IMG/VR virus record: IMGVR_UViG_3300028603_000003
Reading direction: 5' to 3' (one strand)
DNA: 36,596 bases
Origin: a virus
Lineage: Duplodnaviria > Heunggongvirae > Uroviricota > Caudoviricetes
Shown here: positions 9,187-36,348 of the stretch, in pieces
How positions within the stretch are numbered: the first letter of the stretch is position 1
Layout: each line of letters begins with the position of its first letter
Notes under the pieces: model-generated
What the model was told of the DNA's origin: nothing
The model's input: only the letters and a program-made list of their open reading frames with translations
Database searches by the model: none
Position numbers and translations under genes: made by a program

Positions 9187-10020
9187 TTATACCTCAAAAA
9201 TAATTCCGTGATTGTATTTCAGTGTCCGAAGCTCATGTCCGTGATAACCTCTAGGGGAACACAGGATTCGAGTGTCTTTGATCTTATAGTTAAAATCTTG
9301 GTGGACGTGGCCGTGACACCACACTGATATATTTTGCCTGCTTTCGATGAACTCGTCAAGATTAGACGCATACAAGGGACTGTCGTTTGACTTGTGAGAG
9401 TGCAGAGAAGACATATAGCTTGGAGCGTGGTGACTCATCACAACAAACTTAGAGTCAGAGTCTTCTAGGGTCTGTTCTAGCCAAGCCAGTTCTTCTCTGT
9501 GCATATCATACGCATCCTCGGGTTCGAACCTTTGAAGTACATTCTGGGCAGTAACCGGCCTGTCTGATTTGATTACATTGTTGTAATCATTCATCACTCT
9601 TCCGGCTCGGGACATCCACATCCAATCCCCACCGCCGAAGTCTGTCCACAGAGTAATCCCGGCCACACATACTCCATTCCCAAAATCAAAATGCTCCATG
9701 TTCAGGTGCTTGGCTTTGGGGTAATGACTGAACAAACGTTCTTCCAAAATCTCAGAAGTCTTCGCTACGTCGCCGTTATAGTGCTCGTGGTTTCCGTTGA
9801 TGTGGATGATGCAGTCAAACTCTTTCGAGGCAGATTCCATAAATTTATGATATGCTTCGATAGATTGTTCGTATTCTTCAGCATAGCTAAGCCGGTCAGC
9901 CATGACAAAGTCTGCTGCCACAAACACATCACCAGAAAGCAGAAGAACTTCAGCACCTTTGTTTTGTGGCTCGTAGGCTCCGAATTCCAGATGAAGGTCC
10001 GACATTAATTGAAACTTCAT
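9187..10020 (-). CDS. calcineurin-like metallophosphoesterase
   Basis: SDLHLE, LSGD, GNHEHY, SHHAP and HGHVH motifs; ATG at 10020 after GGAG. Confidence 0.92.
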   Translation of the reverse strand: MKFQLMSDLHLEFGAYEPQNKGAEVLLLSGDVFVAADFVMADRLSYAEEYEQSIEAYHKFMESASKEFDCIIHINGNHEHYNGDVAKTSEILEERLFSHYPKAKHLNMEHFDFGNGVCVAGITLWTDFGGGDWMWMSRAGRVMNDYNNVIKSDRPVTAQNVLQRFEPEDAYDMHREELAWLEQTLEDSDSKFVVMSHHAPSYMSSLHSHKSNDSPLYASNLDEFIESRQNISVWCHGHVHQDFNYKIKDTRILCSPRGYHGHELRTLKYNHGIIFEV

Positions 10021-10040
10021 AAAATTTAAACTCCAAATAG

Positions 10041-10065
10041 AAAAGGACTCCGAAGAGTCCTTTTT
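10041..10065. terminator. intrinsic terminator
   Basis: AAAAGGACTC-CGAA-GAGTCCTTTT (TTCG loop on the - strand). Confidence 0.85.
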
Positions 10066-10082
10066 GGGTGTGGGCAATAGGT

Positions 10083-17671: not shown

Positions 17672-17884
17672 TCAGATGCTATAGTTTAGTTCTGTTGTTT
17701 CAACAGTATCGATTGATTTCAGTGTAGTGTCCATCCATCGGACATTTTCGGCCCACAAAGTAAAGTTAGAACCATTAATGCACTTTTGAACGTGGTCAAA
17801 AATTTCCATAACCTGTGCTTCTTCAGGAACCTCAATCTCAAAAACCACGTTAACCTTCACAGTCTTCATCACATTCTTCATCAC
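17672..17884 (-). CDS. hypothetical protein
   Basis: Overlaps the upstream stop. Confidence 0.6.
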   Translation of the reverse strand: MMKNVMKTVKVNVVFEIEVPEEAQVMEIFDHVQKCINGSNFTLWAENVRWMDTTLKSIDTVETTELNYSI

Positions 17885-18381
17885 ATTCCTCGCTTGATAT
17901 TTTTAAAAATGATTTCCTTGAACCCCTCTTCCTTGGTAGGAACCTTGAATTGCTTTCGCATCTTGTCAAGCACATCGTAAGGGATGAGCTTTCCGCGCTT
18001 GCCTCGCTCTTCGTTGCGGTCAAGGATGACTTCGAAGTCTTCATTGAAGACATACGCAACAGTATGATAGTTGCTGGCGATCTTTGCAAGTTTCTTTTTG
18101 CGAGAAGCAGGAGTCAGATTGGTTTGGTCCCAGATGATGTGCTTGTTGTGCCATACAGCCTCGTGGAGCCGTTTTTCCATGTCGGAGGTAGCTTCGCCAA
18201 TGGCGGACTCAAAAATCTTGTTGTAGGTCGTTTTAAGCTGCTTGGCGCGAGCTTCGATGAAGTCGTCAGTCGAGAGCACAACAGCATCAGGAAATACCCG
18301 CATAAGGTATTCCACTTCGGTTGACTTGCCTGCACACGGAAGACCGCAAAGCATAAAGAGGGTTGGGGTTTTATTTGCCAA
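17881..18381 (-). CDS. P-loop kinase (AAA_33 / polynucleotide kinase-like)
   Basis: GLPCAGKST, LSTDD, IWDQTNL and RNEER motifs. Confidence 0.88.
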   Translation of the reverse strand: MANKTPTLFMLCGLPCAGKSTEVEYLMRVFPDAVVLSTDDFIEARAKQLKTTYNKIFESAIGEATSDMEKRLHEAVWHNKHIIWDQTNLTPASRKKKLAKIASNYHTVAYVFNEDFEVILDRNEERGKRGKLIPYDVLDKMRKQFKVPTKEEGFKEIIFKNIKRGM

Positions 18382-20606: not shown

Positions 20607-20652
20607 GCACAGAAAGGATTATACCTAACTGTGCCTTTCGTGTCAACTACCT
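20607..20652 (-). repeat. 46-bp promoter/hairpin module, copy 1
   Basis: 45/46 identical to 28194-28239; contains TTGACA-17-TATAAT. Confidence 0.9.
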
Positions 20653-22313: not shown

Positions 22314-22314
22314 T

Positions 22315-23595
22315 TTATTTTTCCTCTTCAATTTTATATTCAACTTCTTCATCAGAAGAAAGTTTGAACTGGGACATGTTGTTGAACACATCAATATCGT
22401 CGTAATCTTTTAGAACATCGACGCCCTTGCTAAAGATTCCGTGTGAAGCCCAAAGCCCGAGTCGTTTAACATTATACACTTTGCGAAGTTCTTTTGCAAG
22501 CTCGATGAATGTCCGACCGCCATCGATGATATCATCGATCACTAGAAGGTTTACAGGGTCAGAAATTCCCAAGTCTTGTACAACTGTTCCTGAAACTGTT
22601 CCCTTAACAACATCTCGATTCTTAGAAGCCTGAATAACTGGTAGACCAAAATATCCAGAGATTTGATAAATCTTCTTCAAAGCTCCTGCGTCTGGGGCGA
22701 CGATGTAGGTCTTTTCTTTGAAGTTAATGTAATTCTGAATAATGTGTGAGCCTTTAATTGCGTCCAGTTGGCTAATAACCTTTAGCTCACCCGGTCCAAA
22801 CAGCGCAGAAAGAACATCGCTGTGAGGGTCAACAACTTCGACTTGATTGAACTTGCAACTTCGAATTAGGTTTACAATTGCCCGCAAAGAATTTGACTGC
22901 CCATCACACATACGTCGATCTTGGCGAGCATACGGAAAGTAAGGAATGTAAAGATCGATAGGAGCTTCAAGCCCAAAGCTTTCCCTCAAAGCATCATTCA
23001 ACAACAAGAGGTTAATCAGATCGTCGTTGCTTTCGAAGTTGCAGACAATCTTTAACTTTGCTGGTTCACCGTAATAAGGGTACACACTATGTTGAAGGCC
23101 AGTCTCTCCCGCAGGAAACTTCCAAGTTTCCACGCTGTAGTCATAATATTTTGGCCCGGTGTTTGGCGTTACGGCTAGCAATTTTAGCATTTTATATTCC
23201 TTTTTACTCTCGCGATTCCAACTGAATCTTCGAAAGATGATTGATTGACCACACTCTTTCCTTATTTTGAGCGACCAATGACCCAGTCCCCAAGTCAACT
23301 CCAAGGATAACTCGCGAGTAAGAGCCTTGTTGTATGTTTTCACACAAAAAGGCGTTTTCATTTCTAGTTCTAAAATCGTCCAGCCATCGTGGGCGTTCTC
23401 TCCGTTGAGACTAACCTTAGTCTTCTCAGCGGCTTTTCCTACAGCAAGGGCTTCTTCCTTGCACTTGTCATGAACCCGCAAAAAAGCTGCTAGCTCTTGA
23501 AAATGAGAAAACTTCTGATACTGTTTGATTGTAACGACTTTGCCTTCAGACAAAAAGAATTCAACCAGATTTGGGGTTGCTTTGATAGTAATCAT
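22315..23595 (-). CDS. ribose-phosphate pyrophosphokinase-like protein (Adps-like) with in-frame N-terminal extension; likely internal start at 23190
   Basis: FPAGE, PYFPYARQDR, DPHS, APDAGA, DDIIDGGRTF and SHGIFS motifs. Confidence 0.88.
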   Translation of the reverse strand: MITIKATPNLVEFFLSEGKVVTIKQYQKFSHFQELAAFLRVHDKCKEEALAVGKAAEKTKVSLNGENAHDGWTILELEMKTPFCVKTYNKALTRELSLELTWGLGHWSLKIRKECGQSIIFRRFSWNRESKKEYKMLKLLAVTPNTGPKYYDYSVETWKFPAGETGLQHSVYPYYGEPAKLKIVCNFESNDDLINLLLLNDALRESFGLEAPIDLYIPYFPYARQDRRMCDGQSNSLRAIVNLIRSCKFNQVEVVDPHSDVLSALFGPGELKVISQLDAIKGSHIIQNYINFKEKTYIVAPDAGALKKIYQISGYFGLPVIQASKNRDVVKGTVSGTVVQDLGISDPVNLLVIDDIIDGGRTFIELAKELRKVYNVKRLGLWASHGIFSKGVDVLKDYDDIDVFNNMSQFKLSSDEEVEYKIEEEK

Positions 23596-28263: not shown

Positions 28264-29334
28264 TTAGCTTGCCTCGATGCCGAAGGTGTGGAACCACTTG
28301 CGTGCGCGGGTTGAAAGCAGACTGCCGACATCCTTCATCGTAAGGCCAGATGCTTCAAGGGTGTCTGCTTCTTCGCGAGCAATATCAGATGAAATCCACT
28401 TAACAAAATGTCCAGTAGCCTTCATATCTGCGATGATTCCTTCGCGGCGAAGAACTTCAAGCCCTTGCCTCAGTCGATTTTCAGTGACAGTGTTTTCCAC
28501 AAACTCTTCAATGGACTTTACCTTCTCAACATCAACTGCGGCAAGAGTCTTAACCTTGGAAACAGAGTGCTTCTCGCCCTTTACCTTAAACACATGTCCG
28601 CCGTGATCCTCTTCGGAAACCCATACAATTCCCTCGCCGACAGTGTTCTCCGTTACCCCAAAGAACTTGCCGACAGGACAATTGGCCTCGACCTCTTCGG
28701 TTAGCCTAACAAGCTCGTTTTGAACTGCTTCTGGATTCGAAAAGTCAATCTCTACTTCATACTTCCCAAACTGGAAAATATTGTAGAAGTTAATTGAATT
28801 GTCATAGATCAATTCGTCATCAAAAATTAAACATTCTTCAAGATACTCAATCGGAACGTTTCGCACACGCCCGTCACAATATTTGATTCGAATTCCAAAA
28901 AGAACGAAAATTTTATTCGGAAGGTAAGAAACGGCAACGCCCTTTTGGACGTTTGGTCCACACCATTCTCCGAAGAAGTATACACTCTCGATGTCAGCGG
29001 CATCCGCAAAAATTAATTGGTCAAAGAAAATTTCCTTCAACGCTTCCTTGTTTTCTTCGACGTAGTTCCAAAAGCCAAAGTTCGTGTTGCCAGAACCCAG
29101 AACCTGAGAACGAGATTGCGCCCAGATTTCTCCGGTTTTGGGGTTGAATCCAATACCAGCGTTTGTTCCGTGAATCTTCACAGTGCCGGTAAATTTGATC
29201 TTCGGCATCGATGCATCTCGGTTGACGATGACATTTCCTTCTTCGTCTTTACCAACATATTGTGCTCGCATGCGAACTTCCTTTACCACATGTCGGAATT
29301 GTTCAATCGAAGGCCACTCAAGAAATTTACTCAT
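28264..29334 (-). CDS. RNA ligase, Rnl2 family
   Basis: Motif I KIHGTN, QSR, FGEWCG, GEGIVW and FKVK. Confidence 0.88.
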   Translation of the reverse strand: MSKFLEWPSIEQFRHVVKEVRMRAQYVGKDEEGNVIVNRDASMPKIKFTGTVKIHGTNAGIGFNPKTGEIWAQSRSQVLGSGNTNFGFWNYVEENKEALKEIFFDQLIFADAADIESVYFFGEWCGPNVQKGVAVSYLPNKIFVLFGIRIKYCDGRVRNVPIEYLEECLIFDDELIYDNSINFYNIFQFGKYEVEIDFSNPEAVQNELVRLTEEVEANCPVGKFFGVTENTVGEGIVWVSEEDHGGHVFKVKGEKHSVSKVKTLAAVDVEKVKSIEEFVENTVTENRLRQGLEVLRREGIIADMKATGHFVKWISSDIAREEADTLEASGLTMKDVGSLLSTRARKWFHTFGIEAS

Positions 29335-29339
29335 AATAA

Positions 29340-29486
29340 TCAGTCCTTTTTGAAAAACTGTTGAATGTTGTACATAAAGTTATTGACATTGTAAGCCATG
29401 TATCCAGACACAACCCTAGTAGCTTCGAATGGGGTCTTGGAGCTTACAAGCTTTTTCCAAAAGTAGAATGGAGTCAGTTTTTGCAT
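29340..29486 (-). CDS. 48-aa hypothetical protein MQKLTPFYFWKK...
   Basis: Fills the gap before the ligase; ATG overlaps a -10 box. Confidence 0.4.
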   Translation of the reverse strand: MQKLTPFYFWKKLVSSKTPFEATRVVSGYMAYNVNNFMYNIQQFFKKD

Positions 29487-29490
29487 TATA

Positions 29491-29586
29491 TCAAACCTTG
29501 AATTTGCAGTCAACACACTTTACAACCATGTGTTTTTTCTTTTTGTTAAATTTGTACACCAGCATTCCACCGCACTGAGGGCACAT
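29491..29586 (-). CDS. 31-aa Zn-ribbon peptide MCPQCGGMLVYKFNKKKKHMVVKCVDCKFKV
   Basis: AGGA SD; CxxC...CxxC. Confidence 0.55.
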   Translation of the reverse strand: MCPQCGGMLVYKFNKKKKHMVVKCVDCKFKV

Positions 29587-29599
29587 GTTTGTCGTCCTA

Positions 29600-29914
29600 T
29601 CAAGTATGTTCAATGATTTCGATGTCTGTCAGTTCCCGAATGGCTTCGGTACACACAGGGCATGGCTTAGCTGGAGCAGGATTGCCGTTTTTATAAAACC
29701 TAGAAACAAAGATTCTGTGTGCTTTGGACAGATCACGGCACTTGAGAATAGCGTCGACCTCTGCGTGCAAAAACACTTTGTCTGGAAGTCCTACCTTGCT
29801 AGCCATCTTAGCCATAACGGTATGCGTTTTGACGTAAGAGTTCTTGCCAATCGAAAGAATCCTCCCCTTTTTATCGTAGATCACAGCAGTTATATCAAAA
29901 CGCACTTTACACAT
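29600..29914 (-). CDS. cytidine/adenosine deaminase-fold protein
   Basis: LHAE...KPCPVC zinc-deaminase motif. Confidence 0.85.
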   Translation of the reverse strand: MCKVRFDITAVIYDKKGRILSIGKNSYVKTHTVMAKMASKVGLPDKVFLHAEVDAILKCRDLSKAHRIFVSRFYKNGNPAPAKPCPVCTEAIRELTDIEIIEHT

Positions 29915-29970
29915 AAAATTCCATCTAAATCACAGTTTGTAGTATAGCACCACCAAATCTTGAAGTCAAC

Positions 29971-29993
29971 AAAAAGCCCGCACTGGGCGGGCT
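29971..29993 (-). terminator. intrinsic terminator after the Ro60-like gene
   Basis: AGCCCGC-CCAGT-GCGGGCT-TTTT. Confidence 0.8.
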
Positions 29994-29998
29994 ATTCT

Positions 29999-31387
29999 TT
30001 AAATCCAGCGAGTGTATCGTGGAGAGTTGATCGCTTCCAACATGATGTCCGCAGGGGTTACATTCTTAGCTGCCAGAATGCTCTTAACCACAGAAGGCGA
30101 AGCTCCAGATACAAGCCCAACCCCCTCAACGTTGGCCTTCACAGGGACCGAAGTTTGTGCGGCTGCAATGTTCCACCAAATCAGATTTGGGGTCTTGTAA
30201 CCATACAGAGCAAACTCTGCGTCAATCTTCGCCTTGAGGGCGTCATCCCAGTGGAATGCCTTTCCGTTGAACTGCATGTCAGACATGATCAACAGATACT
30301 CAGGCATCTCTTCTTGAGGGACTTTCCCGGCTTTCGCCACATTCAGAATCTCTCGGAAAGCTGCATCTAGGTTTGTTGAAAACCCAACGTTTTGCTTTAC
30401 GTTAAGAAACTTTGTTAGCAAGTCTCCGTTGGCTAGGGTTGCTAGTCGAGGACGCTCAGTGAAAGTGAGATACAACCCGTTGAACTTCCCTTGTTGCTTT
30501 TCGGCAATGTACATCCCAAGAGAAATCGCGATGTCCATGCAAGAGAGGCTAGAGCCATGGGCCTGAATGGACATTGAACCAGAAACGTCGATCATCGGAA
30601 GAATCTTTGCTTCACCGACATAATCGGGAAGTGCCTTCCACTGTTCGTTTGCAACAACCCGGTCGCCACGGATGGCAGACATAACAACGTCGTAAGGGAA
30701 AACTGCCGAAGCGTTGATCTTTGTTTCGCCCTTGACCAGACTATCGCGATATCGAGCGTAAGCTTCAGGAGCATTACGGTTGAAAGCCTTTTGATACCGA
30801 GCAGAAGCTACCGACGGAACGTGTGCAAAAACAATGTCGTTCCACTGCTTAGCACACATAGAAGTTTCGACAACATTGGTCAGAGTCGAAAGCATCTTGC
30901 GATACTGCTTCGAGTTCAAGCCAAGGAAGTTGCGGAAATCCTTCGCAACATCCGCTTTTGCAGACTTCTCACGAGGACACCACTTTGCTGCCAGTGAAGC
31001 TGTGTTTGGATCGGCAAGCGCCTTCTGAAGTTGCACAAACCCATGAAACTTAAATTCTGGGGACTTGAAACAGAACAGGTCATCGTAGCGACCGACCTCG
31101 GCGATTGCAGGAATCAGAGAAAAAAGAATCTCGCGAGATTGGTCTGAATAGGATTCCAGAAAGTTCAGGAAGTTGCGGAACTGTTGACGTTCGCCTGCAC
31201 CGCCTCGAACATCCCGCAGCCAAAGGCCAAGTCGAGCAGTTAGAATGGGGTAAGCATCAAACGCTTTGCGGAATTCAGATTCCAGATTCTTGCCGCGAGA
31301 AGCGCCAGCAAGAAAGAAAAGATCGACAACAGGCTTGATTGTGTTTTGTTCGTTGTCGTTTTGTACAGCTTGTGCAAAAGTTGCCAT
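29999..31387 (-). CDS. TROVE/Ro60-like helical + vWA protein (DUF2828-type)
   Basis: RDVRGGAGER, GRYDDL, AAKWCPRE, YRKML, VPSVA; MIDAS DVSGSM; LTF, STNL, SDMQF and WN motifs. Confidence 0.85.
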   Translation of the reverse strand: MATFAQAVQNDNEQNTIKPVVDLFFLAGASRGKNLESEFRKAFDAYPILTARLGLWLRDVRGGAGERQQFRNFLNFLESYSDQSREILFSLIPAIAEVGRYDDLFCFKSPEFKFHGFVQLQKALADPNTASLAAKWCPREKSAKADVAKDFRNFLGLNSKQYRKMLSTLTNVVETSMCAKQWNDIVFAHVPSVASARYQKAFNRNAPEAYARYRDSLVKGETKINASAVFPYDVVMSAIRGDRVVANEQWKALPDYVGEAKILPMIDVSGSMSIQAHGSSLSCMDIAISLGMYIAEKQQGKFNGLYLTFTERPRLATLANGDLLTKFLNVKQNVGFSTNLDAAFREILNVAKAGKVPQEEMPEYLLIMSDMQFNGKAFHWDDALKAKIDAEFALYGYKTPNLIWWNIAAAQTSVPVKANVEGVGLVSGASPSVVKSILAAKNVTPADIMLEAINSPRYTRWI

Positions 31388-31409
31388 GATTTATTTCCTC
31401 TTCAATTAC

Positions 31410-31481
31410 CAGTTTGATGTGCTGGTTTGCTTTTCCAGCTTTGATTACAATGGTAGCTTATTTTGTTGCTGAAATCAAACT
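31410..31481 (-). ncRNA. candidate Y-RNA-like ncRNA, unit B
   Basis: AGTTTGAT-TTCAGCAA...ATCAAACT-G with 8-bp closing stem; internal GCTGG/CCAGC hairpin. Confidence 0.6.
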
Positions 31482-31485
31482 AAAA

Positions 31486-31552
31486 CAGGATCGCTAGTTT
31501 TTACATTTTACATAAGAAGTGTAGTGTAGTTTAAAGTTTGCTGAAACGATCC
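31486..31552 (-). ncRNA. candidate Y-RNA-like ncRNA, unit A
   Basis: GGATCG-TTTCAGCAAA...CGATCC-TG. Confidence 0.6.
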
Positions 31553-31567
31553 ATTCTTTTGAAATTT

Positions 31568-31643
31568 TGGAGCGGGTAGCCGGTAACGATCCGGTCTATT
31601 CAAGTTTGGAAGACTCGCGTGTATCCATAAACACCTTACCCGC
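31568..31643 (-). tRNA. tRNA-Gly(TCC), atypical T-loop ATCGTTA
   Basis: GCGGGTA/TACCCGC acceptor, CT-TCC-AA loop, T73, CCA. Confidence 0.88.
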
Positions 31644-31647
31644 TTGA

Positions 31648-31746
31648 TGGAGGCTGAAGGAATCAAACCTTCGAGGGGCCGTCGCAGTTCAACTGAATCC
31701 ACAGTCTAGGTCGGAATCGAACCGACATCCTCTTCATTTAGCCCCC
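31648..31746 (-). ncRNA. tRNA-like RNA with Ala-type acceptor and two T-arms
   Basis: GGGGGCT/AGCCTCC-A; GTCGG-TTCGATT-CCGAC and GAAGG-TTTGATT-CCTTC; no D or anticodon arm. Confidence 0.7.
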
Positions 31747-31756
31747 AACTAATTTT

Positions 31757-31830
31757 TGGTGCCCCCACTCTGAATCGAACAGAGGATGTCGGGTTACAAA
31801 GCCGAAGTTATACCACTTAACTATAGGGGC
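31757..31830 (-). tRNA. tRNA-Thr(TGT)
   Basis: Cloverleaf, TT-TGT-AA loop, CCA. Confidence 0.9.
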
Positions 31831-31854
31831 GAAGGTTTGCTTGTCTCGTCAGAC

Positions 31855-31926
31855 AACGTGTGACAGGGATCGAACCTGCTGCCAAGGATTTTTGCCCCCG
31901 GAAGTCGCCAATGCTTCTCCACACAC
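31855..31926 (-). ncRNA. tRNA-like RNA / pseudo-tRNA with degenerate anticodon arm
   Basis: D-arm GAAG/CTTC and T-arm GCAGG-TTCGATC-CCTGT intact; anticodon region GGGGG-CAAAAA-TCCTT; no CCA. Confidence 0.6.
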
Positions 31927-32035
31927 AACAAACCAAATCTAGATGCACCATGTAATGACGATTTCTCGCTCATCGGGGTGAGTAAAGGCTCGCTGGCCCG
32001 ATTAAACATGCTTTCACTTACTAGCCAAGCATATA

Positions 32036-32437
32036 TTAAATCTTCTTCAAGTTCAAGATCACTTCTGTGGGGTCTTCGTCCCCAGTCTCGAACATTTTCC
32101 ACATCAACATCAAATCTTCATAATTCAACTTAACCCAGTCTAAGACTTCTTCAACTTCACTGGGTTTTAACTTAACCATTTTTGGTGTAAGTACCGTAGG
32201 AGTTTTAGAGACAGACACAACAAAGCTATCGTTTGCTGTCATCTTTCCTTTATTAGAAACTTTGATTCGAGGTCCGTGTTGTCCACCAACTTCTCCAAAC
32301 CAAATTACAACAGGCAATCCAGTTCTCTTAGGATGTAGATTAGCCATTTCATCGAGAAACCCATAAACAATCTTGAGTTCTTCGTCTAATAGCTTAACAG
32401 ACTGTAGGCTTTCTTGAAATTTCTTATCTACATCCAT
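32036..32437 (-). CDS. DUF4160-like protein
   Basis: EMANL...TGLPVVIW...HGPRIKV...WVKLNYEDL...W pattern. Confidence 0.7.
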   Translation of the reverse strand: MDVDKKFQESLQSVKLLDEELKIVYGFLDEMANLHPKRTGLPVVIWFGEVGGQHGPRIKVSNKGKMTANDSFVVSVSKTPTVLTPKMVKLKPSEVEEVLDWVKLNYEDLMLMWKMFETGDEDPTEVILNLKKI

Positions 32438-32450
32438 ATCTTAAATTCTG

Positions 32451-32469
32451 TGGCCTGCCCGGTAGGATT
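32451..32469 (-). pseudogene. isolated tRNA 3' end
   Basis: AAT-CCTAC-CGGGCAG-G-CCA with no matching 5' part nearby. Confidence 0.5.
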
Positions 32470-32550
32470 GGCATCTGCCAATATCAAAAGAAAAATATTA
32501 TTCGAACCTCAGTGTTAAATGCAATGCTTCACGACTCTACGGTTCGACTC

Positions 32551-32558
32551 TATAAATA
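32551..32558 (+). promoter_or_regulatory. T4-type late promoter for the antisense HNH gene
   Basis: Exact TATAAATA about 100 nt upstream of the + strand ORF. Confidence 0.55.
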
Positions 32559-32560
32559 TA

Positions 32561-32640
32561 TGGCGGGGCTGATAGGATTCGAACCTACATGCGTCCAATT
32601 ACGGTTTCTACAGTTTAGAAGACTGAGCCGATACAACCCC
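32561..32640 (-). tRNA. atypical tRNA-Arg(TCT) lacking a conventional D-arm
   Basis: GGGGTTG/CAGCCCC-G-CCA; CAGT-CTTCTAA-ACTG; GTAGG-TTCGAAT-CCTAT. Confidence 0.7.
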
Positions 32641-32657
32641 AACAAAAGGAACTTAAA

Positions 32658-33146
32658 ATGAATAACTGCTACCACTGCAACAAAGAAACCACAAACCCAA
32701 AATATTGCTCAAGATCGTGTGCTGCAAAAGAAAACAACAAAACACCGAAAAGAAAACTAACAAGAACTTGCTTAGAGTGTAGTGCACCTGTCTGGTCGTA
32801 CAGACATACCCGATGCGAAACACACTTCTTAGAATACAAAGCCAGAGGACACAAAGACAAAACCATCGGCGAATACAGAAATCTTTTGTCGGTCAAAGGA
32901 AAGCACCCATCATGGGTCAACTCACACATAAGAAACTTTGCTAGAAGTTGGCTAAAACACTTAAGAGATAGTCCTTGTCGCAAATGCGGATACGATAAGC
33001 ATGTAGAACTCGCACACATAAAGTCGGTTGCTAGCTTCCCAGACAGCGCACTTCTGTCTGAGGTGAATTCGGAAGAAAATGTTATACCACTGTGTCCAAA
33101 TTGTCATTGGGAATTTGACAATTTGCCTCGCTATGTGATTGATTGA
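32658..33146 (+). CDS. HNH endonuclease with N-terminal Zn fingers
   Basis: CYHC..YCSRSC; CRKCG...ELAHIK...N...LCPNCH; AAGGA SD. Confidence 0.88.
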   Translation: MNNCYHCNKETTNPKYCSRSCAAKENNKTPKRKLTRTCLECSAPVWSYRHTRCETHFLEYKARGHKDKTIGEYRNLLSVKGKHPSWVNSHIRNFARSWLKHLRDSPCRKCGYDKHVELAHIKSVASFPDSALLSEVNSEENVIPLCPNCHWEFDNLPRYVID

Positions 33147-33213
33147 TGTGCTTCCCACGCACGTTACCAGCATTAAAGCTTGGCGTCCTATAGGTTTCTA
33201 GACTAATCAATCA
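33139..33213 (-). ncRNA. 75-nt cloverleaf RNA, 8/4-like fold, CT-TTA-AT central loop
   Basis: TGATTGAT/ATCAATCA, GTCT/GGAC, CCA(A)GC/GCTGG, GTGC/GCAC; own promoter. Confidence 0.55.
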
Positions 33214-33224
33214 AATCAACATCT

Positions 33225-33253
33225 ATTGTACTGCAAATCTAACTTAAAGTCAA
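33225..33253 (-). promoter_or_regulatory. sigma70 promoter
   Basis: TTGACT-17-TACAAT. Confidence 0.75.
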
Positions 33254-33266
33254 CTACTTTAAAACT

Positions 33267-33480
33267 CAGGAAAAGGATTCCGCTTACTTTAAAACTCAGA
33301 CCACGGTTCTGACTAAGTTCGAGATACCTTTCTGGAATCAATATCCCACCATGGCTGAGAGCACCCACAGTTTACTCGGAACTGCGACCCAGTAAGAACC
33401 CACCAACTAACCGTTACCAAGTTGGCTTTGTCTTACAGCCTAACATATATTATTCATTAAGTGTTTGCTGAACTTTTCCT
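33267..33480 (-). ncRNA. candidate Y-RNA-like ncRNA, long unit C (214 nt)
   Basis: AGGAAAAG-TTCAGCAAA...CTTTTCCT-G; several internal stems. Confidence 0.6.
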
Positions 33481-33552
33481 TTAAAACTCTAGGAGTATTA
33501 AGTCGCGGTAGAACCTAGCTTCACCTTTGACTTTGTTTCTGCTACAGGAAGA

Positions 33553-33581
33553 ATTATCTCACACTCCCCATAACAAGTCAA
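33553..33581 (-). promoter_or_regulatory. sigma70 promoter upstream of unit C
   Basis: TTGACT-17-GATAAT with an extended -10 TG. Confidence 0.65.
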
Positions 33582-33590
33582 CAACTTTAT

Positions 33591-33663
33591 TTTGAGTGGC
33601 AGGGATCGAACCTGCGACCTTTGCGCTCGTCACGCAATTATCTCACCACTGATATACACTCAA
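33591..33663 (-). tRNA. atypical tRNA, nominal anticodon ACG (Arg), G at position 33, no encoded CCA
   Basis: TTGAGTG/CACTCAA, TATC/GATA, TTGCG-TGACGAG-CGCAA, GCAGG-TTCGATC-CCTGC. Confidence 0.7.
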
Positions 33664-33667
33664 ACTC

Positions 33668-33789
33668 TGGAGGCGACGGTAGGATTCGAACCTACATTGG
33701 GTGCGCACCCAATCGGGGAGTTTTATCTTTCATCTAGAATCAAGATAAAACCTTATCCCGACCTGCATTGCCGTGTCTGCCACGTCGCC
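33668..33789 (-). ncRNA. 122-nt tRNA-Cys-like body with greatly extended anticodon arm
   Basis: GGCGACG/CGTCGCC-T-CCA, canonical T-arm; long hairpin GGTTTTATCTT/AAGATAAAACT in place of the anticodon arm. Confidence 0.72.
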
Positions 33790-33796
33790 TCTGTTC

Positions 33797-33889
33797 TGGC
33801 GGAAGGTGTGAGATTCGAACTCACGGAGGATGTTCAGTCCCCGACGGTTTTCAAGACCGTTGCAATAAACCGGACTCTGCCAACCTTCC
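33797..33889 (-). tRNA. tRNA-Ser(TGA)
   Basis: CT-TGA-AA loop, long variable arm, G73, CCA. Confidence 0.95.
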
Positions 33890-33916
33890 AAACTCTAATT
33901 GTACTACATAATTTAC

Positions 33917-34002
33917 TGGTGGGCAAGGTAGGATTCGAACCTACTCAGCCAGCGGCGTCAGATTTACAGTCTGATACATCTCTCCAACTATGTCGCTTGC
34001 CC
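33917..34002 (-). tRNA. tRNA-Tyr(GTA)
   Basis: CT-GTA-AA loop, variable arm, CCA. Confidence 0.95.
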
Positions 34003-34023
34003 TTCTAAACTGGCTCGTTTAAG

Positions 34024-34443
34024 TCACGGAATTATTCCGTTGTACCAGCCCAGTTGTAATGCAGTCCTTCTTCGATGACAGTTAGCGCAGAGAACTCTGC
34101 ACTTGCCAATCTCTTTTTTTATTGTTTCCAACGAGCAACCATACATAACAGAAACAGAATTTCTTTTATTGTTCTGGTCCAAGTGGTCAAACTCTAATAC
34201 CACAGGGTCAGGTTCCCCACACACTTCACAAGGATGAATCTTTAGGTAATCCCATATGTATTGTTTGTTTTGTTTTTCCCTAATTTTTTGCAATTCATGT
34301 TTTCTTGCTTTTGTCTCTACATTTCTATTTTTGTGAAACTCTCTGTCGTATGCTCTCCTACACGATCTACAGATCGCCATTCTCTGTCCGTATGGCTCAT
34401 ACTGCGCTCCACATTTATTACAAGTTTTTAATTCTGACATCAC
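34024..34443 (-). CDS. HNH endonuclease-like protein
   Basis: CNKC, CRSC; CEVCGE...LEFDH...KCRVLCANCH. Confidence 0.88.
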   Translation of the reverse strand: MMSELKTCNKCGAQYEPYGQRMAICRSCRRAYDREFHKNRNVETKARKHELQKIREKQNKQYIWDYLKIHPCEVCGEPDPVVLEFDHLDQNNKRNSVSVMYGCSLETIKKEIGKCRVLCANCHRRRTALQLGWYNGIIP

Positions 34444-34483
34444 AAAATAACCTGTTTAATAAACACAACAAATAGAAAATACA

Positions 34484-34518
34484 AAAAGCGAGGACTCTAC
34501 CAACTGAGCTACACCCAG
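34484..34518 (-). pseudogene. tRNA 5' half (Pro-like), truncated at the anticodon loop
   Basis: CTGGGTG-TA-GCTC-AGTTGGTA-GAGT-C-CTCGC-TTT, then AT-rich HNH leader. Confidence 0.7.
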
Positions 34519-34537
34519 AGTCTTGAAACTCTTATTC

Positions 34538-34612
34538 TGGTACTCCTGTGGGGAATCGAACCCCAGTTCCCTCATAGAAAGTGAGGTGTCCTAACCGCTA
34601 GACGACAGGAGC
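34538..34612 (-). tRNA. tRNA-Glu(TTC), T at position 37
   Basis: CCTCA-CTTTCTA-TGAGG, T-arm, CCA. Confidence 0.9.
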
Positions 34613-34616
34613 AAAA

Positions 34617-34853
34617 CTAGTAAACTGTTTGAATAACAATCGCACGCTTATTTTCGTCCCATGTGTATCCTATTCGCATTCCTTCATGGTATAAGCGTCT
34701 ACCGACGTTTCCGTTTAGGTGGCATTCAAACACCAACTGCAATACTTCATTGTTCAATCTATTTGCCAAAGATCGTGAGAATTCTTTGGGGGAATCTATC
34801 CTCAACAAAGCTCTCTCGGCGTAGTGTCTAGAAAATTCCCAATGCCTTTTCAT
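34617..34853 (-). CDS. hypothetical protein within the tRNA array
   Basis: SRHYAERA...IVIQTVY (loosely toxin/RNase-like pattern). Confidence 0.6.
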   Translation of the reverse strand: MKRHWEFSRHYAERALLRIDSPKEFSRSLANRLNNEVLQLVFECHLNGNVGRRLYHEGMRIGYTWDENKRAIVIQTVY

Positions 34854-34964
34854 AATATGGTTGACAAATTTGTCAGGATGACTATCTACTTTTGGATTAA
34901 TGAGGAAAAATCGAAAACCTCTGGCCGTATTTTATTTAGTTGCCGCAATCATCCTTCGTTAATC

Positions 34965-35039
34965 TGGTGGGGGCAGAAGGATTCGAACCTTCGGCCTATC
35001 GGTTAAAAGCCGATTGCTCTACCGCTGAGCTATGCCCCC
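34965..35039 (-). tRNA. tRNA-Lys(TTT)
   Basis: Canonical cloverleaf, CCA. Confidence 0.96.
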
Positions 35040-35047
35040 AAATTAGG

Positions 35048-35132
35048 TGGTCCCTAGGGCCGGAGTCGAACCGGCACGTCTTTCGACGGCGGATTTTGAA
35101 TCCGCTGCGTCTACCAATTCCGCCACCTAGGG
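35048..35132 (-). tRNA. tRNA-Leu(CAA)
   Basis: TT-CAA-AA loop, variable arm, CCA. Confidence 0.95.
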
Positions 35133-35185
35133 TGAAATCTGTACTGCTTTGTATTGCATCCAAGAAGTTCTTGGCTTCAGAAGCT

Positions 35186-35258
35186 TGGTTGCGGGCGAAA
35201 GAGTCGAACTTTCTCCCAACTGGCTTATGAGGCCAGCGTCACACCTCGTGAACCCGCA
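35186..35258 (-). tRNA. tRNA-Met(CAT), initiator-like, reduced D-arm
   Basis: TGCGGGT/GCCCGCA-A-CCA; CT-CAT-AA loop. Confidence 0.82.
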
Positions 35259-35269
35259 ACTGAAACTAT

Positions 35270-35298
35270 ATTATAGTTGATTAGTTGTTGCTTGTCAA
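35270..35298 (-). promoter_or_regulatory. consensus sigma70 promoter for the tRNA array
   Basis: TTGACA-17-TATAAT. Confidence 0.88.
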
Positions 35299-35306
35299 CC
35301 ACAATT

Positions 35307-35474
35307 TTAACAAATCTTCATCAGTTCAACCGATGCTCGAAGAACAACGTCCTTCCGCCACACAGAGCTACGAATCCACTCGCCACTAGCAATCTTTCGA
35401 TATACAGTATATCCATCAATCTTGTGGCTACCAGAATTCACCAGCTTTACGAGTTCATTAGTTTTGTTCATCGC
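35307..35474 (-). CDS. 55-aa hypothetical protein (MNKTNEL...)
   Basis: GAGGT SD; TTGACA-17-TATAAT at 35530-35502. Confidence 0.6.
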   Translation of the reverse strand, partial: AMNKTNELVKLVNSGSHKIDGYTVYRKIASGEWIRSSVWRKDVVLRASVELMKIC

Positions 35475-35544
35475 ACACCTCAGTTGACTTAGTATGTGAA
35501 GATTATATCGCAAGAACTCAACACTGTCAACTACTTTTATTTTT

Positions 35545-35661
35545 GTGGTGGCCTGTGCTGATCTCAGGCTTCCGTGACTCGATCAACGAGCGCATTTGCT
35601 GCTCGGCAGGACACGACACGGCGGTTTCCTGTTTCGGCGCATCAGCCTGCGCATTCACCAC
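35545..35661 (-). ncRNA. C4 antisense RNA-like element
   Basis: GTGGTGAATGCGCAGGCTGATGCGC...AAGCCTGAGATCAGCACAGGCCACCAC matches the C4-family ends as I recall them. Confidence 0.72.
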
Positions 35662-35673
35662 TCCGAAGCCACA

Positions 35674-35809
35674 TTGACAAACTAATTTTACAGCTTTCTA
35701 ATGTGACTAAAGAATCTCTGCTTACCATAATACAGCGTGCCTACACATCACGCGGAGGGCACGGAAACGAAATCTCTATAATTCTACAGGACTTTCACCT
35801 GTTTGTCAA
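35674..35809 (-). ncRNA. putative structured RNA
   Basis: 9-bp closing stem TTGACAAAC/GTTTGTCAA, ACAGG-TGAAAGT-CCTGT hairpin, GTGCC/GGCAC stem. Confidence 0.5.
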
Positions 35810-35927
35810 GGCTCTCCACCTCGATCTGCTTGTTTGTGGTTTTGCTTCGCCTATAGCTCCACAGGCACTCGCAAGCTTCTTAAAGAGTTAACGACCAGTG
35901 CTATAGGTAAGTGCTAACTCTGACAAC

Positions 35928-35956
35928 ATTGTATCTTATTTAGTTGTTACTGTCAA
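35928..35956 (-). promoter_or_regulatory. sigma70 promoter for the ncRNA block
   Basis: TTGACA-17-TACAAT followed by ~400 nt without a credible - strand ORF. Confidence 0.75.
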
Positions 35957-36348
35957 ACTCTTTCGAAAACAGTAATCGTCTTTTGTTCAGGTTCTACGAA
36001 ATACCACTCGTCGTATTCTGCGCCATTATATGAAGCATACCACCCATCAAACTTTACATACACTACTTCTGTTCCATTAGTGAATGAATAAACAGACCAG
36101 TATTCGTCGCCCTGCCCTTCTCCGCCATGATTACCCTCATACTCGAAGCTGATGCCATCCTTCTCTAGTCCATCTAGGAAATCGAAGTAATATTGGTAAT
36201 GCTCTCGGTTTTCGAGAGCATACTCGCTTGGTGTGACTGAAATTTCGGAACCGAAAAACTCTTGAATGATTTCGGAATCAGCTTCACGTAGTGCGCATGC
36301 CACGGCCTGCTTAAGAAGTTGCTTTGGGGTCTTTTCTTTTTTGCTCAT
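35953..36348 (-). CDS. conserved phage hypothetical protein
   Basis: GGEGQGDEYW...GWYASYNG...VEPEQKTITVF pattern. Confidence 0.75.
   Translation of the reverse strand: MSKKEKTPKQLLKQAVACALREADSEIIQEFFGSEISVTPSEYALENREHYQYYFDFLDGLEKDGISFEYEGNHGGEGQGDEYWSVYSFTNGTEVVYVKFDGWYASYNGAEYDEWYFVEPEQKTITVFERV

What the first reader, a model, noticed from the sequence alone, without database searches (positions are those of the whole stretch)
28264..35960. RNA repair / tRNA-decoy island: ligase, deaminase, Ro60-like protein and many tRNA mimics
Seen: Rnl2 ligase, a Zn-deaminase, a Zn-ribbon peptide and the Ro60-like gene lie directly downstream of an array in which about half the tRNA-shaped genes are abnormal, mostly in the anticodon or D arm, while acceptor and T arms stay well paired. 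A PNK-like kinase and two phosphoesterases are elsewhere in the window. Known: T4 Pnk/Rnl repairs PrrC-cut tRNA, and Salmonella rsr-yrl genes lie with rtcB. Inference: an integrated counter-defence module against anticodon nucleases using replacement tRNAs, decoys and repair.
Basis: partly seen in the sequence, partly recalled or inferred. Interest (0 to 1): 0.8.

Follow-up and report, generated by a model that had tools for sequence, protein, structure and literature searches.

The report
Phage tRNA island with Ro60-like protein
This is the early-expressed tRNA and RNA-handling region of a large T4-like phage; its odd tRNAs are partly conserved unusual tRNA families and partly debris left by homing endonucleases, with no evidence that they are decoys.

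Summary
On the minus strand lie an Rnl2-like RNA ligase, a 104-aa Zn-deaminase, a 40-aa CxxC..CxxC peptide and a protein with a Ro60 fold. Upstream is a tRNA array in which about half of some 16 tRNA-shaped elements are non-canonical.

The decoy reading is not supported.
- Two odd tRNAs belong to conserved, covarying families with intact anticodon loops. One is tRNA-Gly(UCC) with a variant T-loop. The other is a tRNA-Arg that lacks a D-arm.
- A half tRNA (a chimera in the relative) sits at HNH homing-endonuclease breakpoints, seen by comparison with a ~94% identical contig.
- Four more have no relatives and stay undecided.

The Ro60-like protein is a homologue of Bas63 gp130, reported to counter the Ppl defence. 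Its family lies beside same-strand tRNA arrays in most of 50 phage loci; the ligase does not.

A repeated RNA element (stem, UUCAGCAA, stem, CUG) fills this gene's leader and some tRNA spacers. It recurs in many phages and is the best candidate RNA partner. This scan had already noted that element on this same window.

Counter-defence is plausible only by analogy. Verdict: new variant of a known kind.

The parts
28264..29334 (-). Rnl2-like RNA ligase, 356 aa
   Evidence: PF09414 E 1.1e-10. phrog_548 E 2.7e-65. TIGR02307 E 1.8e-12 over 14-305/326, below its cut-off. Motifs KIHGTN, EGIVW, FKVKGEK. Own promoter at 29513.
29340..29516 (-). 58-aa ORF of unknown function, without cysteines
   Evidence: No family hit. 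95% identical in L004.
29491..29613 (-). Zn-ribbon peptide, 40 aa (31 aa from the ATG), CPQC..CVDC
   Evidence: Open in L004 with five substitutions; both CxxC pairs are kept.
29600..29914 (-). Minimal cytidine-deaminase-fold Zn-deaminase, 104 aa (HAE, PCPVC)
   Evidence: PF00383 at 31.3 bits against cut-off 25. Its nearest Atlas clusters (26 of the 30 best hits) are ~100-aa proteins annotated almost only from viruses. The L004 allele is only 37% identical while its flanks are 86-98%.
29975..29993 (-). Terminator-like hairpin after the Ro60-like gene, followed by a promoter at 29969
29999..31387 (-). Ro60-fold protein (DUF2828 + DUF7788/vWA), 462 aa
   Evidence: Pfam E 2.9e-36 and 1.4e-20; phrog_850 E 4.4e-129. 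Model pLDDT 87; top 13 PDB matches are Ro60, best E 1.6e-9, TM 0.5-0.6. MIDAS residues D267, S269, S271 are invariant. Bas63 gp130 is a homologue.
31405..31485 (-). Stem-UUCAGCAA-stem-CUG RNA element in the leader of the Ro60-like gene
   Evidence: Model R2 gives 37.2 bits, E 2.4e-7; the window was not in the seed. The closing stem AGUUUGAU/AUCAAACU is visible.
31488..31552 (-). Second copy of the element, directly after tRNA-Gly
   Evidence: R2 gives 18.5 bits, E 0.007. Closing stem GGAUCG/CGAUCC seen in the sequence.
31568..31643 (-). tRNA-Gly(UCC) with T-loop AUCGUUA
   Evidence: Called by ARAGORN but not by Rfam. 84-92% identical in Aeromonas T4-like phages, with paired changes in the anticodon stem.
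31645..31746 (-). 102-nt RNA with an acceptor-like stem and two T-arm hairpins; no anticodon arm
   Evidence: No relatives outside L054.
31757..31830 (-). tRNA-Thr(UGU), canonical
   Evidence: Rfam 58.7 bits. In L054 this gene is cut at the anticodon loop by a 185-aa HNH gene.
31855..31926 (-). tRNA-shaped RNA with a weak anticodon stem, loop CAAAAAU and no CCA
   Evidence: ARAGORN calls it Phe(aaa); Rfam does not call it. No relatives.
32036..32437 (-). 133-aa ORF inside the array, function unknown
   Evidence: Weak DUF4160 match. Two tandem copies in L054.
32455..32563 (-). Stretch with an interrupted T-loop-like sequence
   Evidence: Sequence and fold. No relatives.
32564..32640 (-). tRNA-Arg(UCU) without a D-arm, member of a conserved phage family
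   Evidence: Rfam 33.8 bits. Similar sequence in 51 phage records; the four I read are members. Model R3 separates members (66-101 bits) from ordinary tRNAs (38 bits or less). All 11 members have Arg anticodons. All 203 cells pair and 17 of 19 pairs show double changes.
32658..33146 (+). HNH endonuclease gene on the opposite strand
   Evidence: phrog_1271 E 1.9e-13.
33275..33490 (-). Long version of the element (AGGAAAAG-UUCAGCAAAC ... CUUUUCCUG, about 170-nt insert), behind the promoter at 33581
   Evidence: Read from the sequence; promoter. Not detectable by R2 because of the insert.
33590..33664 (-). tRNA-Arg(ACG) with G33 and no encoded CCA
   Evidence: Rfam 52.2 bits. Loop UGACGAG. Its 3' half is shared with the chimeric gene in L054.
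33669..33790 (-). 122-nt class-II-like tRNA body whose anticodon loop is replaced by an 11-bp AU-rich hairpin
   Evidence: Fold z-score -3.5. Absent from L054. No relatives.
33797..34002 (-). tRNA-Ser(UGA) and tRNA-Tyr(GUA), canonical
   Evidence: Rfam 53.8 and 50.5 bits.
34024..34443 (-). HNH homing-endonuclease gene
   Evidence: phrog_2255 E 4.8e-32.
34485..34520 (-). 5' half of a tRNA, ending after the 5' strand of the anticodon stem
   Evidence: Sequence. In L054 this half is joined to the 3' half of Arg, giving one gene with a 4-nt anticodon loop.
34538..35258 (-). tRNA-Glu(UUC, U37), marginal element copy at 34875-34955, tRNA-Lys(UUU), tRNA-Leu(CAA), tRNA-Met(CAU) with a compact D-arm
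   Evidence: R2 gives 11.6 bits, E 0.36 for the element copy. Promoter at 35298.
17881..18381 (-). Kinase-only PNK-like protein, outside the stated span
   Evidence: AAA_33 E 3.8e-21; phrog_505 E 6.6e-16; TIGR04075 E 2.8e-8.
9187..10077 (-). Calcineurin-like metallophosphoesterase, outside the stated span
   Evidence: PF00149 E 1.6e-10; phrog_1649 E 8.7e-44.

Best explanation
The stretch is the early-transcribed tRNA and RNA-handling region of a large T4-like phage. It has three layers.

1. A working tRNA set. It comprises seven tRNAs that pass the tRNA model comfortably (two with odd anticodon loops) and at least two structurally unorthodox but conserved ones: Gly-UCC with a variant T-loop, and an Arg-UCU that lacks a D-arm. 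Met-CAU with a compact D-arm may be a third. These supply or replace host tRNAs during infection.

2. tRNA debris. HNH homing endonucleases insert inside tRNA genes at the anticodon loop, and recombination occurs between tRNA genes. This accounts for the half tRNA here and the chimera in the relative, and may account for the double-T-arm piece.

3. A Ro60-fold vWA protein. It appears to be transcribed together with the downstream end of the array. Its leader and some tRNA spacers carry a conserved stem-UUCAGCAA-stem-CUG element. I infer that this element is the protein's RNA partner or operator, in the way a Y RNA partners Ro60.

The deaminase, the Zn-ribbon peptide and the Rnl2-like ligase are neighbouring but separately promoted early genes. 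The ligase can plausibly seal broken RNA. A counter-defence role for the whole region is inferred by analogy and has not been shown.
For: Phage type: rIIA/rIIB, UvsX-like recombinase, replicative helicase and a split DNA polymerase.

Working tRNAs: Rfam scores of 50-80 bits for seven. Gly-UCC is conserved with paired stem changes. The Arg family without a D-arm has 11 members, all with Arg anticodons, 100% pairing and 17 of 19 covarying pairs.

Debris: the contig L054 differs from the window by whole cassettes whose ends lie inside tRNA genes. Its tRNA-Thr is cut at the anticodon loop by an HNH gene. The window's half tRNA abuts an HNH gene.

Ro60 fold and MIDAS site.

Linkage to tRNA arrays: most of 50 loci, always on the same strand.

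RNA element: covarying closing stem with 0 of 500 shuffles as high. Model hits lie just upstream of the Ro60-like ORF in 13 or more loci that were not used for training. In a pattern scan not selected for the protein, 75 loci had a closing stem of 8 bp or more; 62 of them held tRNAs and 27 held the protein. Of 43 loci without the stem, 3 held tRNAs and 1 held the protein.

Transcription: promoter-like sites at 35298, 33581 and 33253; a terminator-like hairpin at 29975; separate promoters at 29969 and 29513.
Against: - No expression, processing, charging or binding data exist.
- Four odd RNAs (33669-33790, 31855-31926, 31645-31746 and Met-CAU) have no informative relatives, so function and decay cannot be told apart.
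- Identity to L054 is mosaic and says nothing about selection: an intergenic block is 100% identical while a coding block is 92%.
- Model R2 finds no copy of the element (E up to 1) in the fetched parts of Bas63 and LPCS28, which carry the protein (LPCS28's longer tRNA-like RNAs do carry a UUCAGCA motif). A strict protein-RNA partnership is therefore not universal.
- The seed instances for the element were chosen for having a stem, which inflates the pairing percentage.
- Promoter and terminator calls are consensus matches only.
Confidence: 0.55

Rival explanations
1. The region is one integrated counter-defence module against anticodon nucleases. Replacement tRNAs restore decoding, malformed tRNAs act as decoys that soak up the nucleases, and the ligase with kinase and phosphoesterase repairs cut tRNAs, assisted by the Ro60-like protein.
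For: The ligase has an intact active-site motif. A PNK-like kinase and a metallophosphoesterase are in the window and recur 3-10 kb from the Ro60-like gene in other phages. Bas63 gp130 counters a defence system (PMC11482910; homology). Phage tRNAs as counter-defence are documented (PMC10264068, PMC11555353). G33 in Arg(ACG) and U37 in Glu are anticodon-loop variants of the kind proposed to evade nucleases.
Against: The decoy candidates lack normal anticodon loops, which is what anticodon nucleases recognise. A half tRNA, and its chimeric form in L054, lie at HNH and recombination breakpoints and differ between ~94% identical phages. Ligase and deaminase are not syntenic with the Ro60-like gene beyond the nearest relative and have their own promoters. 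The kinase has no phosphatase domain and lies 10 kb away.
Confidence: 0.15
2. An ordinary codon-supplementing tRNA array in a hyperplastic region. All non-canonical elements are neutral wreckage, and the neighbouring genes are unrelated early genes that happen to lie there.
For: Cassette-level differences from L054 and two HNH genes in the array. Four odd RNAs have no relatives. Every small gene has its own early promoter, as in T4-type early regions.
Against: The Arg family without a D-arm and the variant Gly are conserved with covariation. The Ro60-like gene is linked to tRNA arrays on the same strand in most of 50 loci. The UUCAGCAA element is conserved with covariation and sits in the leader of that gene.
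Confidence: 0.2
3. The tRNA-shaped elements that lack decoding arms are processing punctuation. Their acceptor and T-arm minihelices are RNase P and RNase Z sites that release the embedded mRNAs (HNH, the 133-aa ORF, the Ro60-like gene) and the neighbouring tRNAs from long early transcripts.
For: Acceptor and T arms are the parts kept intact. The elements flank ORFs inside the array. Few promoters serve many genes between 33253 and 29975.
Against: There is no conservation of these particular elements and no end-mapping data. The bias towards acceptor and T arms may be a detection effect.
Confidence: 0.1

Closest known systems
Bas63 (Escherichia phage JohannRWettstein) gp130, with its adjacent tRNA array
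   Same: Homologous protein: 40% identity, E 6.5e-94, nearly full length. It lies on the same strand next to a large tRNA array. The preprint describes it as Ro60-like by structure, reports that it counters the Ppl defence, and suggests that some of the tRNA genes may be Y RNAs (PMC11482910).
   Different: In Bas63 the gene precedes the array; here it follows it. Model R2 finds no UUCAGCAA element in the fetched end of the Bas63 genome, 76500-87100. No ligase or deaminase is annotated within that stretch.
Ro60/Rsr with YrlA Y RNAs in bacteria, mycobacteriophages and Thermus phage phiLo
   Same: A HEAT-repeat ring plus a vWA domain with a MIDAS site. Candidate partner RNAs are encoded within a few hundred bases on the same strand, as for YrlA (PMC4201824) and for phiLo Yrl1 and Yrl2 (PMC12135203).
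   Different: No Pfam TROVE match, and 11-17% identity to solved Ro60 structures. No YrlA match at threshold. The candidate RNA is a short closed stem with UUCAGCAA and an A-rich strand. It lacks the tRNA-like domain and CGAA motif of YrlA. No rtcB gene is nearby.
T4 Pnk plus Rnl1/Rnl2 repair of tRNA-Lys cut by PrrC
   Same: A ligase with Rnl2-type motifs, a polynucleotide-kinase-like P-loop protein, and a tRNA-Lys(UUU) gene in the same phage.
   Different: The ligase scores below the Rnl2 equivalog cut-off. The kinase has no HAD phosphatase domain and lies 10 kb away. No anticodon nuclease target is known for this uncultured phage.
Homing endonuclease genes in the tRNA clusters of T4-type phages (for example segB; from my own knowledge)
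   Same: Free-standing endonuclease genes sit among tRNA genes. Cassettes are present or absent between close relatives.
   Different: These are HNH enzymes rather than GIY-YIG. The breakpoints fall in the anticodon loop and leave half or loop-deleted tRNA genes.
Jumbo-phage RNA repair systems (Iyer et al. 2021, PMC7824862)
   Same: That survey describes tRNA arrays, Rnl1/Rnl2 ligases, kinases, phosphoesterases and, in a few phages, a TROVE protein with a tRNA-like partner as a counter-measure to attacks on tRNA.
   Different: This protein belongs to the DUF2828 branch, not the annotated TROVE branch. The phage does not appear to be a jumbo phage. Linkage here is strongest between the protein and the tRNA array, not between the protein and the ligase.

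Membership tests
Rnl2-type RNA ligase | Nucleotidyltransferase motif I lysine (KxxG), with motifs IV and V | tested here: met
   KIHGTN, EGIVW and FKVKGEK are in the translation. That they match T4 Rnl2 is from my own knowledge.
Rnl2-type RNA ligase | Match to the family profiles at their curated cut-offs | tested here: inconclusive
   PF09414 scores 42.3 bits against cut-off 27, which is met. TIGR02307 scores 47.4 bits against cut-off 197, which is not met, although the match covers 14-305 of 326 positions. No PDB sequence match even at E 10.
Rnl2-type RNA ligase | Sealing of 3'-OH/5'-phosphate nicks in RNA | not testable with these tools
   Needs an enzyme assay.
Ro60 / TROVE | Ring of HEAT-like helical repeats closed by a vWA domain | tested here: met
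   Model pLDDT 87, pTM 0.85. The top 13 Foldseek PDB matches are all Ro60, aligned over 500 or more columns, TM 0.5-0.6.
Ro60 / TROVE | Pfam TROVE domain by sequence | tested here: not met
   No TROVE hit at E 0.01 or better. The hits are DUF2828 and DUF7788.
Ro60 / TROVE | MIDAS motif DxSxS in the vWA domain | tested here: met
   D267, S269 and S271 are invariant in 25 homologues.
Ro60 / TROVE | Y RNA (YrlA-type) encoded nearby | tested here: not met
   The best YrlA match is 19.3 bits against a gathering score of 69. It spans tRNA-Glu and the following half tRNA, the known artefact of adjacent tRNAs (PMC4201824).
Ro60 / TROVE | Some conserved structured RNA encoded next to the gene on the same strand | tested here: met
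   The UUCAGCAA element is in the leader here and in 13 or more loci not used for training. It covaries. Binding was not tested.
Cytidine-deaminase-fold Zn-deaminase | H(C)xE and PCxxC zinc-binding motifs, and the Pfam PF00383 cut-off | tested here: met
   HAE and PCPVC. 31.3 bits against cut-off 25.
TadA-type tRNA adenosine deaminase | TadA or MafB19-type profile, with the C-terminal helix that binds tRNA | tested here: inconclusive
   Only PF00383 is hit. At 104 aa the protein is shorter than TadA. MafB19 appears only in more distant Atlas clusters.
T4-type polynucleotide kinase-phosphatase | A kinase domain joined to a 3'-phosphatase domain | tested here: not met
   The 166-aa protein has the P-loop kinase only: AAA_33, and the kinase part of TIGR04075.
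Canonical tRNA (Rfam RF00005) | Gathering score of 29 bits | tested here: met
   Met by 8 elements. Not met by Gly-UCC, Met-CAU, 31855-31926, 31645-31746 and 33669-33790.
Phage tRNA-Arg family without a D-arm (defined here) | Acceptor stem, a 3-bp stem enclosing the anticodon hairpin, the UAAYUGGA connector, a T arm, and an Arg anticodon in a 7-nt loop | tested here: met
   The window copy scores 100.7 bits with R3. Eleven members carry UCU, UCG or ACG. All 203 cells pair.
HNH homing endonuclease | HNH profile match, and presence or absence of the gene between close relatives at a conserved target gene | tested here: met
   for the profiles; for the presence or absence polymorphism inside tRNA genes. 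Cleavage was not tested.

The most novel reading that the evidence does not exclude
The DUF2828 branch of Ro60-like proteins forms a phage ribonucleoprotein with the stem-UUCAGCAA-stem-CUG elements. These elements sit in the protein's own leader and between tRNAs. The particle would act on tRNA-array transcripts, in quality control, processing or protection against host tRNA-directed defences. In parallel, phages would have evolved re-architected tRNAs, namely the Arg family without a D-arm and the Gly with a variant T-loop, that still decode but escape host enzymes that recognise the normal tRNA shape.
Probability: 0.3. Interest if true: 0.8.

Novelty: new variant of a known kind. Interest (0 to 1): 0.58.

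Why it matters
Phage tRNA arrays are now seen as counter-measures to host attacks on tRNA. What the many odd tRNA-like genes in them do is still unknown.

This island gives three testable handles.
- A conserved tRNA-Arg without a D-arm, found in phages of Escherichia, Streptomyces and Agrobacterium and in several uncultured phage contigs.
- Clear examples of homing endonucleases remodelling tRNA genes at the anticodon loop.
- A conserved RNA element tied to a widespread Ro60-like phage protein, one member of which already has a counter-defence phenotype.

Together they separate 'odd because broken' from 'odd by design'. They also point to the likely RNA partner of an uncharacterised protein family that has matches in 710 phage records.

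Tried and rejected
- Rfam YrlA as the partner RNA: the best hit is 19 bits, over a tRNA plus half-tRNA pair, which is a known artefact.
- Using the ~94% relative L054 to measure selection on the odd RNAs: identity is mosaic (92% and 99-100% blocks unrelated to feature type), so it is uninformative.
- BLAST of each odd element against 50,697 phage records and against about 190 fetched loci: nothing for 33669-33790, 31645-31746, 31855-31926, 32455-32563 or Met-CAU beyond T-arm similarity.
- PDB sequence searches for the ligase, the Ro60-like protein and the deaminase: empty or spurious.
- Membership of the window's 122-nt RNA in the 'long tRNA-like' family R1 (CUGACAAG hairpin): it scores no better than ordinary tRNAs, 36.6 bits against 41.9 for tRNA-Lys, and the motif is absent from the island.
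- The nearest record G001/L004 ends inside the Ro60-like gene, so it could not be used for the array.
- Folding the promoter-driven non-coding stretches at 35535-35921 gave unremarkable z-scores.
- A literature search for DUF2828 returned only incidental plant and animal mentions.

Full report
**Setting.** The window comes from a large T4-like phage. It encodes rIIA/rIIB, a UvsX-like recombinase, a replicative helicase, a split family-B DNA polymerase and NAD-salvage enzymes. Genes from about 8 kb to the end of the window lie on the minus strand. No close cultured relative exists. The best DNA matches in 50,697 phage records are short tRNA matches to Aeromonas T4-like phages. Two metagenomic contigs are close. 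G001/L004 is about 95% identical but ends inside the Ro60-like gene. L054 is 4.2 kb, about 94-96% identical, and covers the array from about 31449 to 35042.

**The protein genes.**
- The ligase (28264-29334) matches Pfam RNA_ligase, PHROG 548 and the Rnl2 profile TIGR02307 over nearly its whole length, though below the equivalog cut-off. It keeps motifs KIHGTN, EGIVW and FKVKGEK.
- The 104-aa deaminase (29600-29914) has HAE and PCPVC and passes the Pfam cut-off. Its nearest Atlas clusters are ~100-aa proteins annotated almost only from viruses.
- The Zn-ribbon peptide is a 40-aa ORF at 29491-29613 that overlaps both neighbours. It stays open in L004 with five substitutions and both CxxC pairs intact. 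The 58-aa ORF next to it has no cysteine.
- The 462-aa protein (29999-31387) is DUF2828+DUF7788 by Pfam, not TROVE. An AlphaFold model built on 25 homologues (pLDDT 87, pTM 0.85) has Ro60 structures as its 13 best PDB matches, aligned end to end. They include Thermus phage phiLo Ro60, Xenopus and human Ro60, and Deinococcus Rsr. The MIDAS residues are invariant. 'Ro60-like' is therefore correct for the fold. Membership of TROVE by sequence is not met.

**The tRNA-shaped elements.** ARAGORN finds 10 and Rfam finds 8 at gathering score.
- Seven reach the tRNA model's gathering score comfortably, at 50-80 bits. Of these, Arg(ACG) has G33 and no CCA, and Glu has U37.
- The others are these:
  - Met-CAU, with a compact D-arm and every stem paired.
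  - Gly-UCC, with T-loop AUCGUUA.
  - A 77-nt RNA at 32564-32640.
  - A 122-nt RNA at 33669-33790, whose anticodon loop is replaced by an 11-bp hairpin.
  - A cloverleaf with a poor anticodon arm at 31855-31926.
  - A 102-nt piece with two T-arms at 31645-31746.
  - Fragments at 32455-32563.
  - A 5' half at 34485-34520.
- 'About half abnormal' is accurate.

**Odd by design.**
- Gly-UCC is 84-92% identical in Aeromonas T4-like phages that share no other DNA with the window. The odd T-loop is invariant, and the closing pair of the anticodon stem switches from U-A to C-G. The loop reads A54...U58 where normal tRNAs read U54...A58. That is consistent with a kept tertiary pair, which is my inference.
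- The 77-nt RNA matches 51 phage records. I built a covariance model from four members: the window, Streptomyces phage Mildred21 (annotated there as tRNA-Phe), Agrobacterium phage Atu_ph04 and Escherichia phage Bas62. The model found seven more copies in five metagenomic phage loci at 66-79 bits. Ordinary tRNAs score 38 bits or less.
- All eleven members carry a normal 7-nt anticodon loop with UCU, UCG or ACG, which are all arginine anticodons.
- Their fold has no D-arm. A 3-bp stem encloses the anticodon hairpin, and a conserved UAAYUGGA connector precedes the T arm.
- All 203 cells pair, and 17 of 19 pairs show compensatory double changes. No shuffle out of 500 reaches these values. This is a real, conserved, non-canonical tRNA-Arg.

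**Odd because broken.** L054 differs from the window by whole cassettes whose ends lie inside tRNA genes.
- The window has this order: a 5' half tRNA, an HNH gene, tRNA-Tyr, tRNA-Ser, the 122-nt RNA, then tRNA-Arg(ACG).
- L054 has one gene in that place. It is made of the same 5' half joined to the 3' half of Arg, with a 4-nt anticodon loop.
- L054 has an extra tRNA-Ile after tRNA-Lys.
- In L054 tRNA-Thr stops at the anticodon loop, followed by a 185-aa HNH gene (PF01844). The window's Thr is intact.
- HNH genes also abut tRNAs in Cronobacter phage LPCS28 and in Mildred21.
- Homing and recombination inside tRNA genes therefore produce half and chimeric tRNAs in this lineage.

**Undecided.** The 122-nt RNA, 31855-31926, 31645-31746 and Met-CAU have no informative relatives. 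Identity to L054 is mosaic and cannot show selection.

**Linkage.**
- The Ro60-like protein has matches in 710 phage records.
- In most of 50 IMG/VR loci, tRNAs lie within 6 kb of it. Every tRNA upstream of the gene is on its strand, and in seven loci checked with Rfam all tRNAs are.
- The ligase and the deaminase accompany it only in the near-identical L004.
- The PNK-like kinase and the metallophosphoesterase recur 3-10 kb away in several loci. This may reflect a shared genome backbone rather than function.
- Bas63 gp130 is a homologue and sits directly upstream of that phage's tRNA array. A preprint reports that gp130 is Ro60-like, that it counters the Ppl defence, and that some of the tRNAs might be Y RNAs (PMC11482910).

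**A conserved RNA element.**
- The 181 nt between tRNA-Gly and the start codon of the Ro60-like gene consist of two copies of one element. A closing stem begins UUAGG (or a variant). It is followed by UUCAGCAA, a variable insert that often holds a small hairpin, an A-rich strand, and the returning stem strand ending CCUG.
- The same motif is strongly strand-biased in the related loci: 150 forward against 34 reverse.
- In 16 compact copies from other phages the 8-bp stem pairs in every cell. Three positions use all four Watson-Crick pairs. The covariation score is 0.51 against 0.10 in shuffles. These copies were chosen for having a stem, which inflates the pairing figure.
- A model built without the window finds the window's leader copy (37 bits) and the second copy (18.5 bits). 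In 13 or more loci not used for training, it finds a copy immediately upstream of the Ro60-like ORF. It finds none in Aeromonas T4-like arrays, nor in the fetched parts of Bas63 and LPCS28.
- A sequence-only scan of IMG/VR returned 118 loci. Of 75 with a stem of 8 bp or more, 62 held tRNAs and 27 held the protein within the fetched stretch. Of 43 without the stem, 3 held tRNAs and 1 held the protein.
- A long version lies at about 33275-33490, and a marginal copy follows tRNA-Lys.
I reached it independently and add the cross-phage evidence.

**Transcription.** Nine strong sigma-70-like sites lie on the minus strand. The scan found 30 sites against 12.8 +/- 3.3 in shuffles. After 33253 no site above the scan's minimum score (9 of 12) follows until the terminator-like hairpin just after the Ro60-like gene. 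The deaminase and the ligase group then have their own promoters. These are consensus matches only. They suggest that the Ro60-like gene is transcribed together with the downstream end of the array, and that the ligase is transcribed separately.

**Reading.** The island combines a working tRNA set that includes re-architected tRNAs, endonuclease-made debris, and a Ro60-like protein with a probable RNA partner. Separately expressed RNA enzymes sit next to these. Counter-defence is plausible by analogy with three cases: T4 Pnk/Rnl against PrrC, phage tRNAs against tRNA-cutting defences (PMC10264068, PMC11555353), and Bas63 gp130. The decoy idea has no support here. The malformed RNAs lack the anticodon loops that such nucleases read.

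Noticed in passing
L067:9344-9467 and L067:9474-9589 (Cronobacter phage LPCS28); L043:3515-3638; L022:2045-2161; L017:8055-8180; L024:3759-3887; L038:11811-11939: A family of 115-130-nt tRNA-like RNAs with acceptor, D and T arms and CCA, plus a ~50-nt insert that holds a CUGACAAG-looped hairpin and a UYCAGCA motif. Model R1 scores them 48-129 bits, while ordinary tRNAs score 46 or less. In LPCS28 two tandem copies lie in an unannotated gap just downstream of the Ro60-like gene. The window has no member.
   Followed up: partly
L004:2899-3871 (relative of window 28264-29334): In the ~95% identical contig the ligase gene is interrupted after codon 256 by about 973 nt, and the two parts are in different frames. 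This could be an intron or an inserted element. The 323-aa ORF on the opposite strand has no Pfam match.
   Followed up: partly
window 29600-29914 against L004:1522-1866: The deaminase allele in the close relative is only 37% identical in protein, while the flanking genes are 86-98% identical. The gene has been swapped or is diverging very fast.
   Followed up: no
L054:2117-2942: The relative carries two tandem copies (135 and 134 aa) of the 133-aa ORF that is single in the window at 32036-32437.
   Followed up: no
window 14509-17099: The family-B DNA polymerase is split into two overlapping ORFs of 501 and 367 aa.
   Followed up: no
window 20643-23595: NAD-salvage genes lie together: a nicotinamide phosphoribosyltransferase and a ribose-phosphate pyrophosphokinase-like protein.
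   Followed up: no
L026:7724-8152: A two-piece (alpha-type, permuted) tmRNA gene lies about 1 kb upstream of the Ro60-like gene in another phage contig.
   Followed up: no
window 35535-35925, minus strand: Two strong promoter-like sites (35956, 35809) are followed by about 120 and 250 nt with no ORF of 50 aa or more on that strand. Fold z-scores are unremarkable.
   Followed up: partly
L033:6674-6772: A 99-nt tRNA-shaped RNA with a 10-bp extended anticodon arm (fold z-score -3.7) lies 3 kb upstream of a Ro60-like gene. Its design resembles the window's 122-nt RNA, but the sequences are unrelated.
   Followed up: no
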